From positions 1 through 38,217 of the IMG/VR virus record IMGVR_UViG_3300043103_000226: a stretch of 38,217 nucleotides of DNA; one strand, 5' to 3'. Both the position numbers and the translations under genes were made by a program. The notes beneath the pieces were generated by a model that saw only the letters and a list, made by a program, of their open reading frames with translations, was not told the DNA's origin and searched no databases. The DNA comes from a virus (taxonomy: Duplodnaviria; Caudoviricetes). Positions 1 to 38,217 of the stretch are shown one piece after another. Position 1 is the stretch's first letter. Each line of letters begins with the position of its first letter.

Positions 1-127
1 AGTCGATGCCACCCTGCGCCGCTCCACCGTGCGCTGGCTGCGCTACGATGATCTGGATCTCTTCTGGTTCTTCCGCCGCATCGAGGGCGAGATCCTCCGC
101 GCCAATGCCACCTTTGGCTACGAGCTC
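1..127. repeat. 127-bp terminal direct repeat (copy 1), assembly circularisation overlap
   Basis: 1-127 is identical to 38091-38217; 127 is a common assembler k-mer; an ORF reads through the junction in frame. Confidence 0.95.
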
Positions 128-442
128 CAGCACAGCAGCACCGAGTGGCAGCTCACCGAATACGACAGTGCCGACCGCCAACTCTACGACTGGCATCAAG
201 ACAGCAGCGAGCTCTGCAAAGATGCCTTTGAGCGTAAGCTCACCCTTGTGCTCCAGCTCACCGACCCCGCCAAATACGAGGGAGGCACCTTTGAGCTCAA
301 AGGTGATCCCCTACCTGAAACCCATTTCAAAAATGCTGGTGATCTCCTCTTTTTTAGAAGTGCCCTCTGGCACCGCGCCACCGAAGTCACCCAAGGCAAA
401 CGCTACAGCCTCGTCAGCTGGATCAAAGGCCCGAGACGGTAA
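1..442 (+). CDS. 2OG-Fe(II) oxygenase, prolyl-4-hydroxylase/PKHD-like (3' part; gene starts at 37963 across the junction, 189 aa)
   Basis: HxD (YDWHQD), RKLTLVLQL..YEGG strand, distal His (LWHRA), 2OG-binding RxS (GKRYSLVSW). Confidence 0.9.
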   Translation, partial: VDATLRRSTVRWLRYDDLDLFWFFRRIEGEILRANATFGYELQHSSTEWQLTEYDSADRQLYDWHQDSSELCKDAFERKLTLVLQLTDPAKYEGGTFELKGDPLPETHFKNAGDLLFFRSALWHRATEVTQGKRYSLVSWIKGPRR

Positions 443-752: not shown

Positions 753-774
753 TTGACACCGCCCCCAGATCGTG
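753..774 (+). promoter_or_regulatory. late element TTGACA-N13-GTG
   Basis: TTGACA 753-758, start codon 772. Confidence 0.7.
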
Positions 775-2622
775 GAAACCGCGATCTTCGTCAACCTCTC
801 CAAATACACCGCTCACGCAGGCATCACGGGGGTAGCACCTCCCACGGTTGACTGCACTCTGCTCACCGAGTGGCAGGTCAGCTTTGCCTTCTTCCAGCCC
901 GGCTCCGCCGCCGCTGCCCTCAGTGGTGCCACCTTCCGCTTTGCCCTCAAAGAGACCCCCACCAGCAGCCCGCTGATCTTTAGCAGCAGCCTCACCAATT
1001 CAGGGGCCGTCTACACGGCCGACTTCAGCAGCGTAGACAGTGCCGCCCTGCGCACCCTCATCGGCGATCAGCCCACCATCGAAGTCGTCGGCGAGATCGA
1101 GTGGACCATCAGCAGCCGCCGTGAGCGCGTGCATTTCCCCGTCACCGTCACCAATGCCTGGGCACGGCCTGACGACGCCGCACCCGATCCCGTCGCAGAG
1201 GCCAGCATCGTCTGGTTCAATGAGCAGCTCGCCACTCGCGCCGTGCGTTTTGATGTCGCTCAACAACTCACCACACAGCAGAAGACCCAAGGCCGCGACA
1301 ACCTAGGCATCACCGGCACCGGTGGCAGTGCAGCCTGGGCAGACATCACGGGCAAGCCCAGCACCTTTCCGCCAAGTGCCCACACGCATAGTGCTTCCGA
1401 TATTGTCAGCGGCGCACTGGCCGTGGCTAATGGCGGCACCGGATCAACAACCGCATCGGCCGCACGGGAAGCCCTAGGTCTGAGACTGGCCCAAGATGTG
1501 CAGCCTTACAGCGCGGTTTTGGATGCACTGCTGCCTCTTAATGTGCTGGATACTGGAGGCGATGTCGGAACCACTCTTCAGCTAGGCTCTGGTGCAAATT
1601 TTGTTGACGATAATGCCACGACATCAGGAGGTGATGCTGGGGAAATAAGGCTTGTAGGCGGAGATGCGTATGGAGATGCCTCGATCCAGCGTAACGGCGG
1701 AGATGCAGGATTGATTCTGATGCTTGGCGGTCATGCCTCTGATCAGTCTGAAGGCGGAGCTGCTGGCACCATCAATACCAGCGCATCCGGTCAATACCTT
1801 GGCGGCAGCCTGCTGATGAATGCCACTGACCGAAACGCAGGCAGCATCAACACGCAGGCTGGTGGTAATCTAACCATGGGCACAGCCAACGTCTCAGGGC
1901 CAGCCGTTGCTGGCACGCTGCTCACTGATGCCAGCAGCCTGCCAGCCGCTAACCTCACCGGCACCATCGACAATGCTCGTTTAGCTGCAAATATCACTGG
2001 TAGAGCAAGCTTTTCTGCCACAGACGGATCAACAAAAGACTCATCTTTAAGTGCCTCAAATCTTTCTTTTACGGATAACGATTCAGGTCAGCTAGTTAGC
2101 ATAGAGACGCCTGCCACAGGCAGTCAAATTTTCCTCACTTGGCCAAGTTCGACTGGCGTCTTACTAACCAACAACAGCAGTCTTCCAGCCGCTAACCTAA
2201 CAGATACGATTGCAGCAGCTAGAATGGGTTCAGGCACTGCGAACTCGAGCACCTACCTGCGAGGTAACAATACTTTTGCAGCCTTGCCAACAACCATCCA
2301 ACTTGCCTGCTCCGACGAAACAACGGCACTGACTACTGGGGTAAAAGTGACCTTCCGAATGCCCTATGGGATGACTCTCACGTCAGTGCGAGCTAGTCTG
2401 ACAACTGCACCAACGGTGTCCTCGGTTATAGTGAATGTTAAAGAAAGTGGTGCTACTGTTTTAAGTTCTTTGCTGACCATTGCTACTGGATCAAAAACTA
2501 GCACGACAACATCAATCAGCGACTCGTCATTGGCTGACGATTCGGAGATAACAATAGAGGTAACACAAAGTGGAGGCGTGGCCGCAGGTTTGAAATTAAC
2601 GCTCATTGGAACAAGATTATGA
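772..2622 (+). CDS. tail fibre / baseplate-attached fibre protein (616 aa)
   Basis: BppU-like N-terminus, WADITGKPSTFPPSAHTH fibre motif, GALAVANGGTG motif, Gly-rich shaft, repeated LLTxxSSLPAANLT, C-terminal beta domain. Confidence 0.8.
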   Translation: METAIFVNLSKYTAHAGITGVAPPTVDCTLLTEWQVSFAFFQPGSAAAALSGATFRFALKETPTSSPLIFSSSLTNSGAVYTADFSSVDSAALRTLIGDQPTIEVVGEIEWTISSRRERVHFPVTVTNAWARPDDAAPDPVAEASIVWFNEQLATRAVRFDVAQQLTTQQKTQGRDNLGITGTGGSAAWADITGKPSTFPPSAHTHSASDIVSGALAVANGGTGSTTASAAREALGLRLAQDVQPYSAVLDALLPLNVLDTGGDVGTTLQLGSGANFVDDNATTSGGDAGEIRLVGGDAYGDASIQRNGGDAGLILMLGGHASDQSEGGAAGTINTSASGQYLGGSLLMNATDRNAGSINTQAGGNLTMGTANVSGPAVAGTLLTDASSLPAANLTGTIDNARLAANITGRASFSATDGSTKDSSLSASNLSFTDNDSGQLVSIETPATGSQIFLTWPSSTGVLLTNNSSLPAANLTDTIAAARMGSGTANSSTYLRGNNTFAALPTTIQLACSDETTALTTGVKVTFRMPYGMTLTSVRASLTTAPTVSSVIVNVKESGATVLSSLLTIATGSKTSTTTSISDSSLADDSEITIEVTQSGGVAAGLKLTLIGTRL

Positions 2623-3989
2623 GTTTCATCATCAACCCATATAGTTTCGGGTTTAACCCTTTGTCGCTGAGTCCTGCTCTTTGGCTCAGTGATACAGGCA
2701 GCGACCCTGCTGTTTGGCCGGATTTGTCAGGCAATGGGAGGAATGCTACGCAGGCAACAGTAGGAGCGCAACCTGCTATTGTGACAGGTGCAATTAACGG
2801 GCGGCAGGTAAGGCGGTTTAATGGTTTAACTAACTACCTTCAAAGCAACTCTGCTTTAGCCACTACTACAGGGACTATTTTTGTCGTCAGTCAATTTACA
2901 GATTTGATTGTTGCTGATCGAGTGATTTTTCAAGCGGGAACCAACGCTACAAAAGCAAGTGTTGGTTTATCAATTCACACTAATCGTGCTCGAAAATCAT
3001 TCATTTATGGATCTACGGATATAATTGGAACTGCTACAACAAATGCCACAAGCATGAGTTGCATATTCAACGCTTCTGGCAATACCTATTACCAAGATGG
3101 CACACTAGTTGGGTCTGTTAGTGTAACAGGAATTAGTTGCGGTGCAGGCTTTACTGTTGGTTCATTGCGGGACGGATCTTTTACGACTTTTTACAAAGGC
3201 GACATCGCCGAAATTCTCGTCTTTCCAACCGCACTCAGCACCACAGACCGCCAAGCCGTTGAGTCCTACCTCCGCACCAAATGGGGCACACCTGCTCCAT
3301 TTGACCCGCTCTCACTAAGCCCAGCTCTTTGGCTTAGTGACACAGGCAGCGACCAGTCTGTGTGGCCTGATCTTTCGGGCAATGGGAGAAATGCTACAGC
3401 AGGCGCAGGGCAGCAACCTGCTATTATAGCTGGAGCGCAAAATGGGCGACAGGTTAGACGCTTTGATGGCTCAAATGATTACATGAGCTGCGGTAATGTG
3501 ATTAATGTTGGATTAGGAGAAATCACTTTATTTGCAGTTACTAAAATCAACTCAGGCGTTAATGTTGGGATCGTTGGAAAGTCGGTATCAGCAGCCGCGG
3601 GTGGGCGTTATACGATTGTAAGATATTTGGGTAATCTTGAAGCAAATGGTTCGTTTGATGCCGCTGGTGTTGGCCCGTCAGCAGTGTTACCATCCGATTC
3701 AAGCACTGCTATGCGTGTTCTGGGTGCTGTGCTAACAAGAGGGACTAGCACGCTTTATGTTAACGGTTCCTTGGCTGCAACAGCTTCATATACTGCTGTC
3801 AATACTGATTTTAATAATAGCTATCCATTGTATATCGGAGCATTTCAAAATGCAACTGGAACGGCACCAGTAGCTGGGTTTTACTTAAACGGTGACATTG
3901 CCGAAATCTTTATTTTTCAAAGAGCACTCAGCACCACCGACCGTCAAGCCGTCGAGTCTTACCTTCGCACCAAATGGGGCACACCATAA
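2619..3989 (+). CDS. receptor-binding protein with two tandem LamG/ConA-like domains (456 aa)
   Basis: two copies of F[ND]PLSLSPALWLSD...GDIAEI...ALSTTDRQAVESYLRTKWGTP; ATGA overlap with the fibre gene. Confidence 0.8.
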   Translation: MSFIINPYSFGFNPLSLSPALWLSDTGSDPAVWPDLSGNGRNATQATVGAQPAIVTGAINGRQVRRFNGLTNYLQSNSALATTTGTIFVVSQFTDLIVADRVIFQAGTNATKASVGLSIHTNRARKSFIYGSTDIIGTATTNATSMSCIFNASGNTYYQDGTLVGSVSVTGISCGAGFTVGSLRDGSFTTFYKGDIAEILVFPTALSTTDRQAVESYLRTKWGTPAPFDPLSLSPALWLSDTGSDQSVWPDLSGNGRNATAGAGQQPAIIAGAQNGRQVRRFDGSNDYMSCGNVINVGLGEITLFAVTKINSGVNVGIVGKSVSAAAGGRYTIVRYLGNLEANGSFDAAGVGPSAVLPSDSSTAMRVLGAVLTRGTSTLYVNGSLAATASYTAVNTDFNNSYPLYIGAFQNATGTAPVAGFYLNGDIAEIFIFQRALSTTDRQAVESYLRTKWGTP

Positions 3990-7984: not shown

Positions 7985-8518
7985 ATGAATGGAAATCAAA
8001 CTTATTGGCTCTGCCGTGCGCAGGGATGTGCGACTGAGGGGCCGTTTACGTTGGCTCAGTTAACCACGATGTATGGTAAGGGTGCGGTGACGGCTGAGGC
8101 GATGCTGTGTGAGGCGGGATCTAGAACATGGGTGCTGTTGGTCCAGGTGCTGGAGGGTGGCGGAAAGGTGGCCTTTATTCACTCTCGTAAGATACGGGTC
8201 GGTGGTAGCACGCTGCTGGCTGTGTGCCTGTTCCTGATTGGGCTGTGTATGCTGATCTCTGCTTTGTTTCTGATTGGCTTGGCTATCATGGCAGCGAGTG
8301 GCCTGGTGCGGGCTAAGTATCGCATTGAGTCTTTCTGCTCGGACTGTGGCAACACAGTGGCAATGACGAGCCTCACCTGCCCCTCCTGTAAGGCTGAGCT
8401 TGAGCTTCCGCCTGAAACCAGTCAGCAGAAGATGACGAAGATCTTTTGGTGGATGCTTTATGCGGTGATCTTCTTTTGTATTGGCTTGATGATCGTCAAT
8501 GGTCTGGCCCCAAAGTGA
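7985..8518 (+). CDS. membrane protein with GYF_2-like N-domain, TM hairpin, zinc ribbon and C-terminal TM
   Basis: YW...EGPFTLAQL..MY..G.VT...W; CSDCG..CPSC; hydrophobic segments. Confidence 0.7.
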   Translation: MNGNQTYWLCRAQGCATEGPFTLAQLTTMYGKGAVTAEAMLCEAGSRTWVLLVQVLEGGGKVAFIHSRKIRVGGSTLLAVCLFLIGLCMLISALFLIGLAIMAASGLVRAKYRIESFCSDCGNTVAMTSLTCPSCKAELELPPETSQQKMTKIFWWMLYAVIFFCIGLMIVNGLAPK

Positions 8519-31865: not shown

Positions 31866-31893
31866 GTGTCAATGACACGCGCCGTTAAGTATG
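31866..31893 (+). promoter_or_regulatory. late element variant ATGACA-N13-ATG within palindrome GTGTCA-A-TGACAC
   Basis: ATGACA 31872-31877, ATG 31891. Confidence 0.55.
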
Positions 31894-33858
31894 GCGGCAG
31901 AAATTCAACTGGGGTGGAATAACAACCAATTACGCGCGGGAGCCGCTGGGGCCTCCGCCATTGTCAGCCGTGCTACGGCTGATATGAAAAAAAGCTTGGG
32001 TGACATTAGTTCCGGACTTGGGGCTGGGCTGGGCTTTGGCATCTTTGATACGGCTAAAAACATGATCGTTGGAGCCACGGGCGCGATCTATGAAGCCACC
32101 GTTACCGCCGACTCTCTACGCAATGGCATGACGGCACTAGAAGGTAGTGTGAGCTCCGCCAATCAGCGGCTCAATGAAATGCGCCAACTGGCCAAAGATC
32201 CAGGCCTTGGCTTTGAGCAGGTCGTGCGCGGAGACATCAGCCTGCGCAGTGTCGGCCTGAGTGCTGAGCTTTCCACCCGTGCGATGCGTGAGTTTGGCAA
32301 TGCGCTGACCGCTGTGGGTAAAGGCAAAGCCGATCTGGATGGCGTCTTGCTAGCCATCACTCAGATCGTTTCCAAAGGCAAAGTCAGTGCTGAGGAAATC
32401 AATCAGATCGCAGAGCGTGTGCCGCAGATCCGTAACGTGATGAAAGAAACTTTTGGCACAGCTGATACTGAAGCCCTCCAAAAGATGGGTCTTTCAGTCG
32501 AGAAATTTGTGGAGATGCTCGTTCAAGGTTTTGAAAATAATATTCCACGCGCCATTGCTGGCCTTCAGGGTAAAGTGGACAATTTCACTGATGCGGCCAC
32601 ATCGCGCCTTGGTGACTTTGGTGAGGGATTATCAAAAGGCTTTTTAGGCCCTTTATCGGATGCCACCAGTGTGTTGGAAAAAAGCACCGGAGAAAGTAAA
32701 GCTTTCGGTGAAGCTCTAGGTTCTATTGGCATGGCCTTTTATGAAGTCGGTAAATTATCCGCTACCGGCTGGAAAATCATGCTTGATGGCTTTGGTGAAT
32801 TCAGCACTAAGGTAGCCTTTGCGGGCTTGGAAATGGCAGGCTTTAAACGTATCGCCACCGAAACCAAAGAAGAAACGTTTCGCCTTAGGCTGGCGGAGCT
32901 TCAGGCAGGCTGGGCAGCTGATGATCTAGCCCGTTCTCAGCGTGAGGCTGAGGCCACCACCAAGAGACTTTCGCAGGCTCGTGAAGAAGCGGCCCGACGC
33001 GCCAATGAGCAGGCCATGGCCGAGGCTAAGCTCACGGCGGAGATCATCAAAAACACCAATGCGTCACGTGACAATTTCATGTCGGAGCGCGGCAAGACAG
33101 CAGACCTTTACCTAACGGATCAAGAAAAACTTGAAAGGGTCAAAGAACGCATCGCCAAGATTGATGCGGACATCAATAAAACTGTCGGCCAAACAGGTGG
33201 CGAAGAGATCACCTACAAACTCATGGCGGCCCGTGAGCAGGCCATGCAGGAAATTTTGCAACTTAGCAAATCCATCGCCGCTGAAAATGAGCGTGCCGCT
33301 GCGACGGATACCAAAAGCCTGCGCTCATCGGCTGAAAAAGTCGCCACGAAAGAACGCTCTCTGCAGCTGCTGGACCTGGAGCTAAGCATCCTGCAAGCGC
33401 AGGCCAAGGGTCAGGATGAAAAGGCCCGTCGCTTACAGGAAGAAGCGGAGATCATTGAGACGACAGCTCGCCTGGTCTCTGAATTAGGGCTGTCCTACGA
33501 AGATGCTGCTCAAAAGGCTACGCAACTGGTGAAGGCCCGTGCTGCAGCAGAATCCCGCCAATCGGGCCGTGATGAAAATGGCCGATCTAAAATCCAAGGC
33601 TATTCCCAAGAGCAAGGCGGCCGCGAGGATGCTCGGGGACGCGCGCAAATGCGGACGAATGAAGCGCGTCAAAACTATGATGATTCCATTCAAAAATTCT
33701 TTGGCAATACCTCGCGCACCGACACCCGCGGCCTGTCTGCTGGCGCGAGGATTCCCGCAGCGGAGACGGCTAAGGATGGCGGCATGACTGAGCTGACCTC
33801 GGCCTTTGACGCCTTTGCTACTAAGACAACAGAAATTTTTGAACGTGCCCTGAACTAG
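31891..33858 (+). CDS. tape measure protein (655 aa)
   Basis: AITQIVSKGKVSAEEINQIAERVP tape-measure domain, long Ala/Glu helical region. Confidence 0.9.
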   Translation: MAAEIQLGWNNNQLRAGAAGASAIVSRATADMKKSLGDISSGLGAGLGFGIFDTAKNMIVGATGAIYEATVTADSLRNGMTALEGSVSSANQRLNEMRQLAKDPGLGFEQVVRGDISLRSVGLSAELSTRAMREFGNALTAVGKGKADLDGVLLAITQIVSKGKVSAEEINQIAERVPQIRNVMKETFGTADTEALQKMGLSVEKFVEMLVQGFENNIPRAIAGLQGKVDNFTDAATSRLGDFGEGLSKGFLGPLSDATSVLEKSTGESKAFGEALGSIGMAFYEVGKLSATGWKIMLDGFGEFSTKVAFAGLEMAGFKRIATETKEETFRLRLAELQAGWAADDLARSQREAEATTKRLSQAREEAARRANEQAMAEAKLTAEIIKNTNASRDNFMSERGKTADLYLTDQEKLERVKERIAKIDADINKTVGQTGGEEITYKLMAAREQAMQEILQLSKSIAAENERAAATDTKSLRSSAEKVATKERSLQLLDLELSILQAQAKGQDEKARRLQEEAEIIETTARLVSELGLSYEDAAQKATQLVKARAAAESRQSGRDENGRSKIQGYSQEQGGREDARGRAQMRTNEARQNYDDSIQKFFGNTSRTDTRGLSAGARIPAAETAKDGGMTELTSAFDAFATKTTEIFERALN

Positions 33859-33859
33859 T

Positions 33860-34732
33860 ATGCCTTTACCTCCCCAAGTGATTTCCTTCGGTGCTCTGGA
33901 AGAGCAGATCGGTGGCCTGAGATGGCGGCTCCGGCCTAATGATTTTGATTCCTGCTTTTACAGCGTGGATTCTACCAATGAAGCCTTTGTGAGCCCCGGC
34001 GCGGCCATGCCGGGCTACCCGATCATGCGGGCTGTGGATGTGGCGGCCAATCAATTGGGTGATGTGTGGGTCTTTGATGCGGAATACAAAGGCTTTAAGT
34101 CTGCGGCAGAAACATGGCGGCTTTTTCAATCCTCAGAAAATTCACCTTCAGAAGGCTTTGATAACATCAGCATGGTCATCGGCACGCGCACGCCTGATGA
34201 TCCGATCTTTGCCCGGGGTGAGCTTTCACCTTTGGCTGGGCCGCATCCGCAGATGTATATCATGGATGTGGCCAAGGAGCCGACGGAGATCGCCGGATAC
34301 ACGATGATGAACTTGCAGCTGCGTGGCCAGATCGGCAATAAGCCCTACACGCGCCGCATCAACACTGCCACCCAGACCTTTTCACCTTCGGCTCCATGGA
34401 CTGCGGCGGATCAGATCAATGGCAACGGTGACCCGATTTACGGATGGACTGCGGAGGGTGCTCAGCCTGCTGAATTCACGATCCCACGGACGACTCTGAC
34501 TGACAGCTTTGTGACCATCACTGAGCCGCCGTTCAATGGCATCCCTGGCAACGTGCTGCCGGAAAATCGGCCTCTACTCACTGAGTTCACTTTTTGGACC
34601 TCCGGCGGCTACCGTTACCACTGGCCCTATGGCTGGCGGAGAGCCAGCATCAGCTCAGAGCAGCTGCCCGGCAGGAATGTGTGGTTTGTCAGCATCACCT
34701 ATGAAGCCCAACAAAAAATCCTCCCTGAATAA
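33860..34732 (+). CDS. distal tail / tail tip protein (putative)
   Basis: 290 aa immediately after the TMP. Confidence 0.55.
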   Translation: MPLPPQVISFGALEEQIGGLRWRLRPNDFDSCFYSVDSTNEAFVSPGAAMPGYPIMRAVDVAANQLGDVWVFDAEYKGFKSAAETWRLFQSSENSPSEGFDNISMVIGTRTPDDPIFARGELSPLAGPHPQMYIMDVAKEPTEIAGYTMMNLQLRGQIGNKPYTRRINTATQTFSPSAPWTAADQINGNGDPIYGWTAEGAQPAEFTIPRTTLTDSFVTITEPPFNGIPGNVLPENRPLLTEFTFWTSGGYRYHWPYGWRRASISSEQLPGRNVWFVSITYEAQQKILPE

Positions 34733-34955
34733 TCCTGAGCTAACTGCAGCTCTGCCGCCGATCTCGGCCCAGATGCAGGCATTCATGGAGAAAAGCTTCA
34801 CGCCGCACCCTGGCCGGTGGTTTTATCACCTCGACCAATTTCAGGCAGACATTGATTCGCAACTCTTGGTTCGCGGATTGGTGGAGCGTGAAGAGGTCGA
34901 GTTGAAAGGTCTAAAGCTCCATCGTTATCGATTGGCTGAATCCATCCCTGAATGA
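34701..34955 (+). CDS. small hypothetical protein
   Basis: start uncertain (34701 or 34773); ATGA overlap with collagen A. Confidence 0.5.
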
Positions 34956-35968
34956 TCCAGAAGCGGCCAGTCTATCGCCTAAGAGCTCAGCGTGGCATTG
35001 CTACGCTGCGCATGATGCGTGACTTTGCTGCGTGGTTAGGCCCACGGCTCAGCGCGCCTTTCGACATCCATTTTAACGGTGAGAGATCCCGCGGCGAAAA
35101 CACGTCTAACCTGACGACGATCGATCACCATTTAGCCAGTGGCAGTGGTGGGCCTGTGGGGCCGACGGGTGATCCCGGTGCACCGGGTCCTGATGGGCCG
35201 CCCGGAAGTGCGGGAAGTCCAGGCACACCAGGCGCAGCGGGCACACCAGGCACACCGGCACCACCTGTGGGACCTAAGGGCAGGAAAGGCCAAAAAGGTA
35301 GCAAAGGCGGCGTGGGTGAGCGCGGAGATCCCGGCCCAGCCGGTGAGCGCGGAGATCGCGGAGATGTAGGGCCTGTGGGTGCATCCCTGCCCGGTTTGCC
35401 GGGCCCACCGGGGCCACCGGGAAGTATTTATTATGAGGGTGAACCGGGGCCCCCTGGGGCACCGGGGCCAAACGGTTTACCGGGACCAGCGGGGCCACCG
35501 GGGCCACCCGGAGAGCGTGGGCCATCCGCCATCACACCCGGCGGCCCAGGGGAACCCGGCCCGCCCGGCCCTGAGGGGGCTACAGGTGATTTTGGAGACC
35601 CGACCAAGACGGCTATTCTGAACACGTCACTGGGCATCTTTGGCATGGCAGCGGTGGAGATGCCGGAGGCGCGCTTCCGTGAGCAGATCAAGGTAGTGCT
35701 TAAAAACCGCCCCGTGATCCATACCATTGATGCACGATTCCTCGGCAGCATCGAGCCCTGCTCTCTGCGCATTGTTTCCATCATCAGCACTAGCCCAGTG
35801 AAGGTGGAGCTTAAAGGCAGCCGCGTGCATGTCTCAGCCCAGTGCCATGCCGTGGCCACGATCATCGTCTCAGGCATTCGGCGTGGTTTTTTAAATCAAC
35901 GTTTCCCTAGATTCACCGCTGATCAAATGCACGCCAATGCTAACTTTTACCGGAGGGCTCACCGCTGA
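34952..35968 (+). CDS. collagen-like protein A (338 aa)
   Basis: ~47 Gly-X-Y triplets between N- and C-terminal domains shared with B and C. Confidence 0.9.
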
Positions 35969-36978
35969 TGGAAGCTCGCAGAAAACCGCTGAAATACAGG
36001 CTGCCGCCGAAAGGGGTGCTGAAGGTGGAGTCACTCAATGACTTCGTAAAATTCATGGGCCGCGCGCTCAATTTTAATGTGAACTTTGACTCAGCCACCT
36101 CACAGGTCCGCGCTGATGGCAGCACTTACGTCACCGGCGCAGGTGGTGAAGGTGGCCCTGGCCCAAAGGGACCCGACGGGCCAAGCGGTCCAACCGGGCC
36201 ACCGGGCTCAGCCGGTAGTAATGGCATGCCCGGAGCCCCCGGCGGCAATGGGGCCAGCCCAGTGGCCCCCATCGGCCCAGACGGTGATCCCGGTGAGATG
36301 GGAGATCAGGGTTCCAAAGGGCCCGCAGAAACTGAACCTGGGCCCAAAGGCCCCAAGGGAGATCCCGGCCCGCCTGGTGATGACCTAGCGGGACCAGCCG
36401 GACCACCCGGAGAAATAGGTGAGCCTAACATTGATCCTGGTCCTGACGGGCCTCCGGGCCCGCCCGGCCCACCCGGCACACCTGCCTTTGAACCCGGCAG
36501 TCCGGGACCTCCTGGAGATCCGGGCGGCCCCGGCTTTACCTTTCCCGGTTTGCCCGGCGATGAAGGCCCGCCTGGTGCTAAAGGTGAGCCGGGGAATAAA
36601 TACGCCATCGTCACGATCCCTGATGGCCGCCATGTGGGCCTGCATGCCACAGAGGCCTCGCGGCCGTGGTTCATGGATGAAATCACGTTTAAGATCCCGC
36701 CGCTGCTGGCCTACATCGATCTGCCCATCGATGCGCTTTTATTAGGCAGTATTGAGCCAGCGAGCCTCTGCGTCATTCAGACCAGCACGCCTGCCATCGG
36801 TGCCCAGATCATGGGAGATCGGGTCCGCATCACCGCGAGTCCTTTCCGCCTTTCCAGCATCACCGGCGTGGTCACGCTGGCAGGCATCCGCGCCGGATTT
36901 TCAGACTGGCATTTCAAAAGCTTCACGGCTGAGCAAATGACCCGAAACAACGCCTTTTATTCCGCCGCTTATGGTTAG
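35968..36978 (+). CDS. collagen-like protein B (336 aa)
   Basis: ~44 Gly-X-Y triplets; TGATG overlap with A. Confidence 0.9.
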
Positions 36979-37966
36979 CCAAAAAACAACGTATCGATTC
37001 AAACGCAGCAAGGGCTTTGCTTATGTTTCAGATTTTCGGGAGTTCGTGAGCTTTGTGCTCGCACGACTGCAGCAGTCCATCGCGAACCCAAACATCATCA
37101 AAATCTCAGAGTTGCCTGATGGCTTTCAGGTCACGTTCGATGCCGAGACTGCCACCACCGGCCCTGAAGGACCTGCGGGACCAGAGGGGCCAACTGGCGG
37201 CGTAGGCCCTGCGGGAAGTCCAGGCACACCGGGAGCCCCCGGCACACCAGGCATCCCCGGCGCAGCCGGTGGCAGTCCTGGGCCCCCAGGAGATCCTGGA
37301 GATAAAGGCGATCCCGGAGATCCCGGTGACCCGGGCCCTTTCACGATTGGAAACAAAGGGGCCATCGGCCCACAGGGCCCAGCGCAGACCGTCGGTGGTC
37401 CTACTGGCCCGCCTGGCCCTGTGGGACCTCCGGCTGGTCCTAACACCATCGTCGGCCCTGATGGCCCTCCGGGCCCGCCCGGAAATCCCGGACCTGAAGC
37501 TGAGGTCGGGCCTAAGGGGCCACCCGGTTTGAATGGCTTCTCTAGTTTTGGTCCTGACGGTCCGCCCGGCCCGCCCGGCCCTGTCGGTCCTCCCGGCCCT
37601 AAGCTAGCCATCGTGAAGTCCTGTGATGAAATCGTCGGCCTGCATGTGCTAGAGGCACCTGAGTTTCGCTTCCTTGAAATCATGCCCTTCACTGACAGTG
37701 GCCGCCTGCCCATCGACCCGCGTTTCCTCGCCGTCTGTGAGCCTGACAGCCTCACCGTCATCGGCCTGGTCACAGCACGGCCGGCCGCCACGCGTGCCAT
37801 CCTGCACCATGACCGCGTGCAGGTCATCTGCCCGCGTGGTATGACAGGCACCGTAACTTTATCAGGCATCGCTAAAGGTCACGCATCACGGCGATTCCCT
37901 GAATTCACCGCAAACCAACAAAACCAAAACGCCGCCTTCTGGGCGTCGGCCCTCATCGCCTCATGA
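36971..37966 (+). CDS. collagen-like protein C (331 aa)
   Basis: ~44 Gly-X-Y triplets; 8-nt overlap with B. Confidence 0.9.
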
Positions 37967-38217
37967 CTCGTAATCACTGGTATCACAGCCCAGCCTTTCT
38001 GACCCCGAAAGAATGCACCATGCTCATCAAGCATGCCGTAAAAAACTACCCGGCCAAGCCAGCCGTCGTCGGCCATGGCGGTCAAAGCCGAGTCGATGCC
38101 ACCCTGCGCCGCTCCACCGTGCGCTGGCTGCGCTACGATGATCTGGATCTCTTCTGGTTCTTCCGCCGCATCGAGGGCGAGATCCTCCGCGCCAATGCCA
38201 CCTTTGGCTACGAGCTC
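37963..38217 (+). CDS. 2OG-Fe(II) oxygenase (5' part; continues to 442)
   Basis: ATG 37963 overlaps the collagen C stop; [25 protein letters not shown]...[12 protein letters not shown] is in frame with ORF 29-442. Confidence 0.9.
38091..38217. repeat. 127-bp terminal direct repeat (copy 2)
   Basis: identical to 1-127. Confidence 0.95.

What the first reader, a model, noticed from the sequence alone, without database searches (positions are those of the whole stretch)
34952..37966. Three equal-length, in-register collagen paralogs suggest an ABC heterotrimer
Seen: the genes overlap each other and encode 338, 336 and 331 aa with collagen regions of ~154, ~153 and ~148 aa. Counting back from the conserved K-x-AI anchor, interruptions fall at ~117/74/60/27 (A), ~114/91/72/58/39/20 (B) and ~112/87/73/57-53/35/20 (C), so they largely coincide although the sequences have diverged. 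Established: a triple helix needs three chains, characterised prokaryotic collagens are homotrimers, and heterotrimers are typical of animals. Inference: one chain of each type forms a kinked fibre of roughly 40-45 nm (0.29 nm per residue). Shared ancestry alone could also explain part of the register.
Basis: partly seen in the sequence, partly recalled or inferred. Interest (0 to 1): 0.85.

Follow-up and report, generated by a model that had tools for sequence, protein, structure and literature searches.

The report
Phage ABC heterotrimeric collagen tail fibre
A bacterial virus carries three different collagen genes in a row whose lengths and kink positions change in step across related viruses, so one chain of each likely winds into a single three-chain tail fibre, an arrangement known from animal collagens, and the enzyme gene next to them likely adds the hydroxyproline that stabilises animal collagen.

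Summary
Observation confirmed. The window is a complete circular temperate phage, likely of Prosthecobacter-type hosts.

Twelve complete relatives keep exactly three genes in the same order. Collagen length varies from 58 to 156 residues between phages but matches within each (r 0.987–0.995; contrasts r 0.99). Two sister phages differ by 26/27/25-residue indels at the same place in all three chains, each with unrelated sequence. Interruptions coincide better than random (p<0.001) and better than cross-phage pairs (p=0.0002). Paralogs group by position, not by phage. An ABC model of the C-terminal heads scored 0.86 against a best control of 0.05; no homotrimer control was possible. Charge complementarity is weak, and one defective-looking locus has C alone.

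Best reading: an ABC heterotrimeric collagen tail fibre (0.8), likely hydroxylated by the adjacent enzyme (0.6). A 2022 review calls prokaryotic collagens homotrimers. The scan noted a similar trio-plus-hydroxylase idea on other DNA (e1-6078236).

The parts
31891..33858 (+). Tape measure protein (context: tail gene block)
   Evidence: Pfam TMP_3 E 3e-17; PHROG tape measure
33860..34732 (+). 290-aa protein between the tape measure gene and the triad; likely tail-tip component and possible anchor of the fibre (inferred from position only)
   Evidence: Same position in L001, L003, L010, L011, L014, L016, L147; no Pfam, PHROG or NCBIfam hit; Atlas look-alikes are unnamed viral clusters
34952..35968 (+). 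Chain A, 338 aa: ~55-aa N-domain, collagen 35141-35605 (155 aa, 47 triplets, 4 breaks), linker two residues longer than in B and C, C-terminal head 35606-35965
35968..36978 (+). Chain B, 336 aa: collagen 36136-36597 (154 aa, 44 triplets, 7 breaks), head 36598-36975
36971..37966 (+). Chain C, 331 aa: collagen 37160-37600 (147 aa, 43 triplets, 6 breaks), head 37601-37963
37963..38217 (+). 5' part of a 2OG-Fe(II) oxygenase of prolyl-hydroxylase fold; overlaps the stop of C by 4 nt
   Evidence: full 189-aa homolog in L001; fold search
2..442 (+). 3' part of the same oxygenase across the circular join, carrying H-x-D, the second His and the Arg
   Evidence: invariant columns
38091..38217 (.). 127-nt terminal repeat identical to window 1-127; the contig is a circular phage genome

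Best explanation
Three adjacent, overlapping phage genes encode diverged collagen chains of matched length and break pattern that likely assemble one of each into an ABC triple-helical tail fibre of about 40-44 nm, and the neighbouring oxygenase likely hydroxylates their prolines. Shown: the anatomy, the fixed order and copy number, and the co-varying lengths, indels and breaks. Predicted: the three C-terminal beta-sandwich heads bind as an ABC trimer. Inferred: the overlapping genes give roughly equal amounts of the three chains; the heads select one chain of each type and set the stagger, with A's two extra linker residues fitting a staggered helix to the head; the helix zips toward the N-domain, which docks on the tail tip; shared breaks act as hinges; the heads bind host surface sugars. 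Odds: heterotrimer 0.8, virion tail fibre 0.8, collagen as substrate of the oxygenase 0.6.
For: (1) Exactly three genes in order A-B-C plus the oxygenase in 12 of 12 complete loci. (2) Collagen length spans 58-156 aa between loci with a median within-locus range of 4.5 aa; r 0.987-0.995, permutation p 2e-5 on 10 loci, same r on 11 loci; the parse-free measure gives r 0.991-0.995. (3) 10 independent contrasts give r 0.990-0.996. (4) L011 vs L121: indels of 26, 27 and 22+3 aa within 40 aa of the anchor in A, B and C; longest DNA match among these stretches 9-11 nt. (5) Register 5.1 vs 9.3 for random placement (p 0.0005; 10 of 10 loci p<0.04) and vs 7.5 for locus-shuffled pairs (p 0.0002). (6) Head trees group by position, not by phage; heads within a locus average 31% identity. 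(7) L147, found after these tests, has 145/138/135 aa with matching breaks. (8) ABC head model 0.86 vs best of 3 controls 0.05; the mark was reached by 116 of 157 solved and 2 of 215 mismatched pairs, counts that hold only roughly here; runs agree in at least 89% of contacts, partner pLDDT at least 80. (9) The head fold matches predicted phage tail proteins (9 hits at E<=1e-3) and weakly the tips of trimeric fibres (Z 5.2-6.3); the single-copy relative L123 has a tail-fibre N-domain. (10) The oxygenase folds like prolyl hydroxylases; Pro fills 43% of Y positions in 1074 triplets.
Against: No homotrimer control could be run, and the tool warns that close cousins of a true partner also pass (10 of 12 colicin pairs), so the pass does not separate ABC from AAA/BBB/CCC. 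Charge complementarity is weak: pooled p 0.017, 1 of 10 loci below 0.05, window p 0.45; a post hoc focused test gave p 0.03 with 3 of 6 loci unremarkable. L007 carries C plus the oxygenase alone. Breaks coincide only partly; A lacks two that B and C share. A and B are not resolved as single clades. The oxygenase's best fold match acts on EF-Tu (4iw3) and its best sequence matches are PKHD/PiuC proteins. A distant homolog abuts a collagen with 2% Y-Pro (L041), and 9 of 14 distant clusters have no collagen upstream. No protein, virion or RNA data were examined.
Confidence: 0.8

Rival explanations
1. Three separate homotrimeric fibres (AAA, BBB, CCC) sit side by side or bundle on the tail tip and must have equal reach, for example three receptor specificities presented at one height.
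For: Single-copy relatives with the same head exist (L039, L122, L123, L143), so the head can presumably homotrimerise. Equal reach would explain length co-variation. The ABC model had no homotrimer control. Charge complementarity is weak.
Against: Equal reach does not need indels at the same place, locus-specific shared breaks, a fixed count of exactly three, or a class-specific +2 linker in A. Tightly bundled homotrimers could still need these, so this rival is not excluded.
Confidence: 0.12
2. The chains are interchangeable and form a mixture of trimers (AAB, ABC, BBC and others) that diversifies host binding; matched length is needed for any mixing.
For: It explains length and register matching equally well.
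Against: Copy number would be free to vary, yet 12 of 12 complete loci have three. In the model control, A plus C without B scored 0.05 (one control only).
Confidence: 0.06
3. The match is a by-product of recent duplication or gene conversion, with no co-assembly.
For: Paralog collagen regions within a locus share slightly longer exact DNA matches (mean 16.6 vs 13.2 nt across loci), which shared codon usage or short conversions could give.
Against: Heads within a locus are only 31% identical and group by position. Non-Gly collagen identity is no higher within loci (0.40) than across (0.43). The matched indels have unrelated sequence.
Confidence: 0.02

Closest known systems
Phage collagen-like tail fibres (EPclA/B of E. 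coli O157 prophages, PMC3368898, passages read)
   Same: Gly-X-Y domain between globular domains in a putative tail fibre gene of a temperate phage
   Different: There each fibre comes from one gene, and a review describes prokaryotic collagen-like proteins as homotrimers without hydroxyproline (PMC8968730, passages). Here there are three co-evolving paralogs, a different head family, Pro at 43% of Y positions and an adjacent oxygenase.
Animal ABC collagens: complement C1q (PMC11869133, passages) and collagen IX with its NC2 domain (PMC10404678, passages)
   Same: Three distinct chains in one interrupted triple helix; C-terminal globular heads (C1q); a non-collagenous domain that selects chains and sets the stagger (collagen IX NC2)
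   Different: No homology of the head to C1q or NC domains was seen. This is a phage operon made in a bacterial cytoplasm, so the likeness is convergent, and chain selection here is predicted rather than shown.
Virophage DSLV2 tripartite tail fibre (PMC12724248, passages)
   Same: Three consecutive viral genes shown by co-purification to form a 1:1:1 heterotrimeric fibre, related to homotrimeric phage fibres
   Different: It is a T4 gp37-like fibre with no mention of collagen in the main text (0 occurrences), in a virophage rather than a tailed phage.
Prolyl 4-hydroxylases: Pseudomonas PPHD (4iw3), Chlorella virus vCPH (5c5t), algal P4H (3gze, 2jig), PHD2
   Same: Fold (Foldseek E 8e-11 to 2e-8, TMq 0.66-0.79), H-x-D...H triad, and an N-terminal half aligning to algal P4H
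   Different: About 20% identity, substrate untested, PKHD/PiuC proteins score as well, and the 2OG-binding residue is Arg where collagen P4Hs use Lys (recalled).

Membership tests
Collagen triple-helix protein | Extended Gly-X-Y repeat, Pfam PF01391 above the gathering score | tested here: met
   62.1, 45.1 and 48.5 bits vs cut-off 27.2; 47/44/43 triplets
Collagen triple-helix protein | Forms a thermally melting triple helix | not testable with these tools
   needs CD or EM
ABC heterotrimeric collagen (works like C1q or collagen IX) | Three distinct chains with matched helical length and aligned interruptions | tested here: met
ABC heterotrimeric collagen (works like C1q or collagen IX) | Non-collagenous domain prefers ABC over homotrimers | tested here: inconclusive
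   ABC model passes (0.86 vs 0.05) but no homotrimer job could be run
ABC heterotrimeric collagen (works like C1q or collagen IX) | 1:1:1 stoichiometry shown biochemically | not testable with these tools
   experiment needed
C1q/TNF or collagen NC domain family (membership) | Head homologous to gC1q or NC1/NC2 | tested here: inconclusive
   No Pfam hit for the head; not among the listed fold matches, best Z 6.4. Not filed as a member.
Phage tail fibre | Position in the tail gene block behind the tape measure gene; head related to tail-protein tips | tested here: met
Phage tail fibre | Present on the virion and binds the host | not testable with these tools
   uncultured phage; no match among 50,697 GenBank phage records
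Prolyl 4-hydroxylase-type 2OG-Fe(II) oxygenase | Double-stranded beta-helix fold with H-x-D...H and a basic 2OG-binding residue | tested here: met
   H108, D110, H167 and R177 invariant in 38 of 38 sequences; Pfam PF13640; fold
Collagen prolyl 4-hydroxylase | Hydroxylates Y-position Pro in Gly-X-Pro | tested here: inconclusive
   Gene adjacency and Y-Pro richness support it; the closest structure acts on EF-Tu and PKHD proteins score equally; activity not testable here

The most novel reading that the evidence does not exclude
Phages of Verrucomicrobia independently evolved an animal-style collagen system in about 3.6 kb: three genes for an obligate ABC triple helix, a chain-selecting and stagger-setting head, and a dedicated prolyl hydroxylase that makes hydroxyproline collagen inside a bacterial cell. 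A second 120/118/116-aa collagen trio beside a related enzyme (L040) hints that this arose more than once.
Probability: 0.5. Interest if true: 0.92.

Novelty: new variant of a known kind. Interest (0 to 1): 0.84.

Why it matters
[quoted passage not shown] This module is a natural candidate exception on both counts. It gives a small system, expressible in bacteria, for asking how three chains are selected and staggered, how interruptions stay in register, and how a single-gene homotrimer evolves into ABC, since single-copy relatives with the same head exist. A new heterotrimerisation head and a matched hydroxylase could serve recombinant collagen work, which now uses the collagen IX NC2 domain (PMC10404678). 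The head also defines an unnamed family of 705 representatives.

Tried and rejected
Charge complementarity as main support: weak. The homotrimer energies are inflated by self-pairs and were not used.

Gene conversion: rejected.

Family libraries for the head: no Pfam, NCBIfam or PHROG hit at E<=1e-3. The PDB sequence search returned collagen stretches only, because alignment A9 carried collagen columns. Foldseek against the PDB gave no E<=1e-3; VIA best Z 6.4, which may reflect only a common sandwich. The ESM Atlas gave no usable hit for the head.

The first homolog search found only 2 close proteins among 39 candidates. An A-type locus scan failed for lack of a conserved stretch, so loci were found through mixed, B, C and oxygenase queries only.

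Genome searches found the head in 7 of 145 family genomes, 9 of 401 order genomes and 1 of 401 phylum genomes. No RNA holder listed.

The collagen parse tolerance was raised from 9 to 16 residues after mis-cut L014 A and crashed; the parse-free length measure gives the same correlations.

Seven paper searches listed no prokaryotic or phage heterotrimeric collagen. Only listings and passages were seen and no supplements were read, so a mention in unread text or outside the library is not excluded.

Full report
CONTEXT. The window is the whole record G000 and ends in a 127-nt repeat of its start, so it is a circular genome. It encodes integrase, gpA-type terminase, lambda-type portal, Clp protease, major head and tape measure proteins: a temperate tailed phage. 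Behind the tape measure gene (31891-33858) come a 290-aa protein, the three collagen genes A, B and C, and a gene that runs across the circular join and encodes a 189-aa 2OG-Fe(II) oxygenase. Relatives lie in Prosthecobacter genome bins (L120, L121) and in another genome of that family (G083), so the host is likely Verrucomicrobiaceae. That is inferred from relatives, not shown for this phage.

OBSERVATION. Each chain has a ~55-aa N-domain, 147-155 aa of interrupted collagen and a ~120-aa head. The chains are 40-42% identical overall to A and 35-36% in the head. Break coincidence in this phage beats random placement (5.5 vs 10.4 residues, p 0.003). Contigs from two other studies carry the block intact.

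COPY NUMBER AND ORDER. Scans with mixed, B-type, C-type and oxygenase queries gave 12 distinct complete loci: the window, L001, L003, L010, L011, L014, L016 (with near-copies L017-L020), L112, L113, L118, L121 and L147. All 12 have exactly three head-bearing collagen genes in order A-B-C, directly followed by the oxygenase. Five loci are cut by contig ends (L030, L115, L116, L117, L119), and L120 has a cut A with B and C identical to L118. One locus, L007, has C alone; it matches L113 at 99.6% from C's start and follows a terminase with no head or tail genes between, so it is likely defective or chimeric, but it counts as an exception. Single-copy genes with the same head (L039, L122, L123, L143; L084 and L149 on short or cut contigs) have other N-termini; where placed in a tree they fall outside the triad groups. 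L123's N-domain matches tail-fibre families. No A-only scan worked, and the oxygenase profile was built from triad loci, so its top class is partly triad-linked by construction.

LENGTH CO-VARIATION. On 10 loci (L001 dropped as a near-copy of the window), collagen length runs from 58 to 156 aa, yet the median within-locus range is 4.5 aa (largest 17); r = 0.987-0.995, permutation p 2e-5. A parse-free measure, N-terminal motif to anchor, gives r 0.991-0.995. Adding L147, found later (145/138/135), leaves r unchanged. On a tree of the concatenated heads of 11 loci, 10 independent contrasts give r 0.990-0.996. The clearest case is the sister pair L011/L121 (72-77% identical): L121 has 26, 27 and 22+3 extra residues in A, B and C, all within 40 residues of the anchor, and these stretches share no exact DNA match over 11 nt. 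In more distant pairs the indels cannot be placed reliably.

REGISTER. Over 10 loci the mean nearest-break distance is 5.1 against 9.3 for random placement (p 0.0005; each locus p<0.04). It is 7.8 for paralogs and 7.7 for orthologs from different phages; the locus shuffle gives p 0.0002. Breaks therefore track the partner chains more than the chain's own ancestry.

ANCESTRY. Heads group by position, never by phage, and the same two lineages recur in A, B and C (82 rows; 36 rows). C is one well-supported group (97/95). A and B each fall into two or three groups whose union is unresolved, so a single origin of the triad is likely but not shown. Heads within a locus average 31% identity, the same as paralogs across loci. 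Longest exact DNA matches are slightly longer within loci (16.6 vs 13.2 nt), while non-Gly collagen identity is not higher (0.40 vs 0.43). Duplication or conversion cannot account for the matches.

THE HEAD. AlphaFold2 gives a confident small beta-sandwich plus a C-terminal helix (pLDDT 96). It matches predicted phage tail proteins (9 at E<=1e-3) and weakly the tips of trimeric fibres and H-type lectins (7eea Z 6.3, rmsd 2.5, 65 aligned; 4ru4 Z 6.2; 6cxb Z 5.6; 4mtm Z 5.2), which may be only a common fold. An ABC model of the heads with 6-7 triplets scored 0.86 against a best control of 0.05; the mark was reached by 116 of 157 solved and 2 of 215 mismatched pairs, counts that hold only roughly for three chains with my own alignments; runs agree in at least 89% of contacts and partner pLDDT is at least 80. 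It supports binding but cannot exclude homotrimers, because cousins of true partners also pass. The last Gly lies 4 residues before the anchor Lys in 10 of 11 A chains, and 2 residues before it in 10 of 11 B and 11 of 11 C chains. A three-fold symmetric trimerisation domain is reported to fit the staggered helix poorly (PMC10404678, passages), so I infer that this class-specific linker sets the stagger.

CHARGES. Complementarity is weak: pooled p 0.017, 1 of 10 loci significant, window p 0.45; post hoc p 0.03 on the 6 of 11 loci with a basic block. I give it little weight.

THE OXYGENASE. The metal triad and Arg are invariant in 38 of 38 homologs. The model of the L001 copy (pLDDT 92) matches Pseudomonas PPHD (E 8e-11), PKHD proteins (8e-9), viral collagen prolyl hydroxylase (1e-8), algal P4H and PHD2; by sequence its N-terminal half aligns with algal P4H (E 6e-9). 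Pro fills 54% of X and 43% of Y positions in 1074 triplets. The review's table gives 33-42% Y-Pro/Hyp for human collagens and Thr as the commonest bacterial Y residue (PMC8968730, passages). Among oxygenase loci (80 of 154 viral hits were returned; 11 of 14 genome hits used), all 4 clusters at 200-214 bits have an adjacent collagen gene (L039 read, missed by the filter); Y-Pro is 0.30-0.62 in the three scored. Of 14 clusters at 171 bits or less, 9 have no collagen within 5 kb, 3 have collagen with 2-7% Y-Pro in the examples printed (one, L041, directly adjacent), 1 has Pro-rich collagen and 1 is too short. This favours, but does not prove, collagen as the substrate; PKHD-like or host-directed activity remains open.

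MECHANISM AND RIVALS. The most likely reading is an obligate ABC collagen fibre on the tail tip (0.8), zipped from chain-selecting heads, hinged at shared breaks, and stabilised by hydroxyproline from the adjacent enzyme (0.6). Rivals: three matched homotrimers (0.12), free mixing of chains (0.06), ancestry alone (0.02).

WHAT IS KNOWN. Prokaryotic collagen-like proteins are described as homotrimers (PMC8968730, passages). Phage collagen fibres are single-gene products (PMC3368898, passages). ABC helices are known from C1q and collagen IX (PMC11869133 and PMC10404678, passages). A non-collagen ABC fibre from three consecutive genes was shown in virophage DSLV2 (PMC12724248, passages), which makes the principle plausible in viruses. 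The heterotrimers in the phi92 paper are baseplate wedges (PMC13450770, passages). PMC11923368 (passages) has no occurrence of 'phage'. Seven searches listed no phage or prokaryotic heterotrimeric collagen; supplements were not read. The scan's own notes hold a similar trio-plus-hydroxylase idea for a giant phage (e1-6078236) and a case where a phage oxygenase was judged not to act on a nearby collagen (e1-2014067); neither was tested here. No look-alike of this locus was noted before.

VERDICT. The feature is real, the comparative evidence for co-assembly is strong, and it runs against a stated generalisation. New variant of a known kind; interest 0.84.

Noticed in passing
L040:4424-5541 (200-kb viral contig): Three tandem headless mini-collagen ORFs of 120/118/116 aa (collagen spans 105/102/103, Y-Pro 0.44-0.62) lie 0.4 kb upstream of a related oxygenase. 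Possibly a second, independent length-matched trio; its breaks agree only at about 74-78 from the C-end.
   Followed up: partly
window 34722-34961: A 223-bp insert between the 290-aa tail gene and chain A, flanked by a 17-nt imperfect direct repeat; absent in L001, where the two genes overlap.
   Followed up: partly
L118:1298-2232 and L120:581-1515: About 930 bp between A and B with small opposite-strand ORFs, one resembling a helix-turn-helix protein (label by eye); the triad stays length-matched.
   Followed up: partly
L007:2342-4099: C and the oxygenase are 99.6% identical to L113, with the match starting at C's start, directly behind a terminase gene with no head or tail genes between; likely a deleted prophage or a chimeric assembly.
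   Followed up: partly
window 35606-35965 (head family): An unnamed C-terminal domain of about 120 aa with 705 representatives at E<=1e-3. All of the best 150 carry it at or near the C-terminus; 50 of the 91 listed proteins of 230 aa or more have collagen, others have Ser/Gly linkers.
   Followed up: partly
L155:5431-8005 (G215:C145): Two tandem genes with the same head but Ser/Gly/Thr linkers instead of collagen, and no oxygenase within 13 kb.
   Followed up: partly
L147:4953-8199 (G083:C138): A Pro-poor triad in which all three chains carry a Gly-(Val/Ile/Arg)-(Asp/Asn) block at the same position: acidic in A, neutral in B, basic in C.
   Followed up: partly
window 772-3989: A second pair of tail or virion proteins behind the oxygenase (616 aa; 456 aa with a LamG domain, GC 0.46-0.47 against about 0.56 elsewhere); may be a separate, swapped receptor-binding module.
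   Followed up: no
window 7985-8518: A GYF_2-domain protein between the integrase and a repressor-like HTH gene.
   Followed up: no
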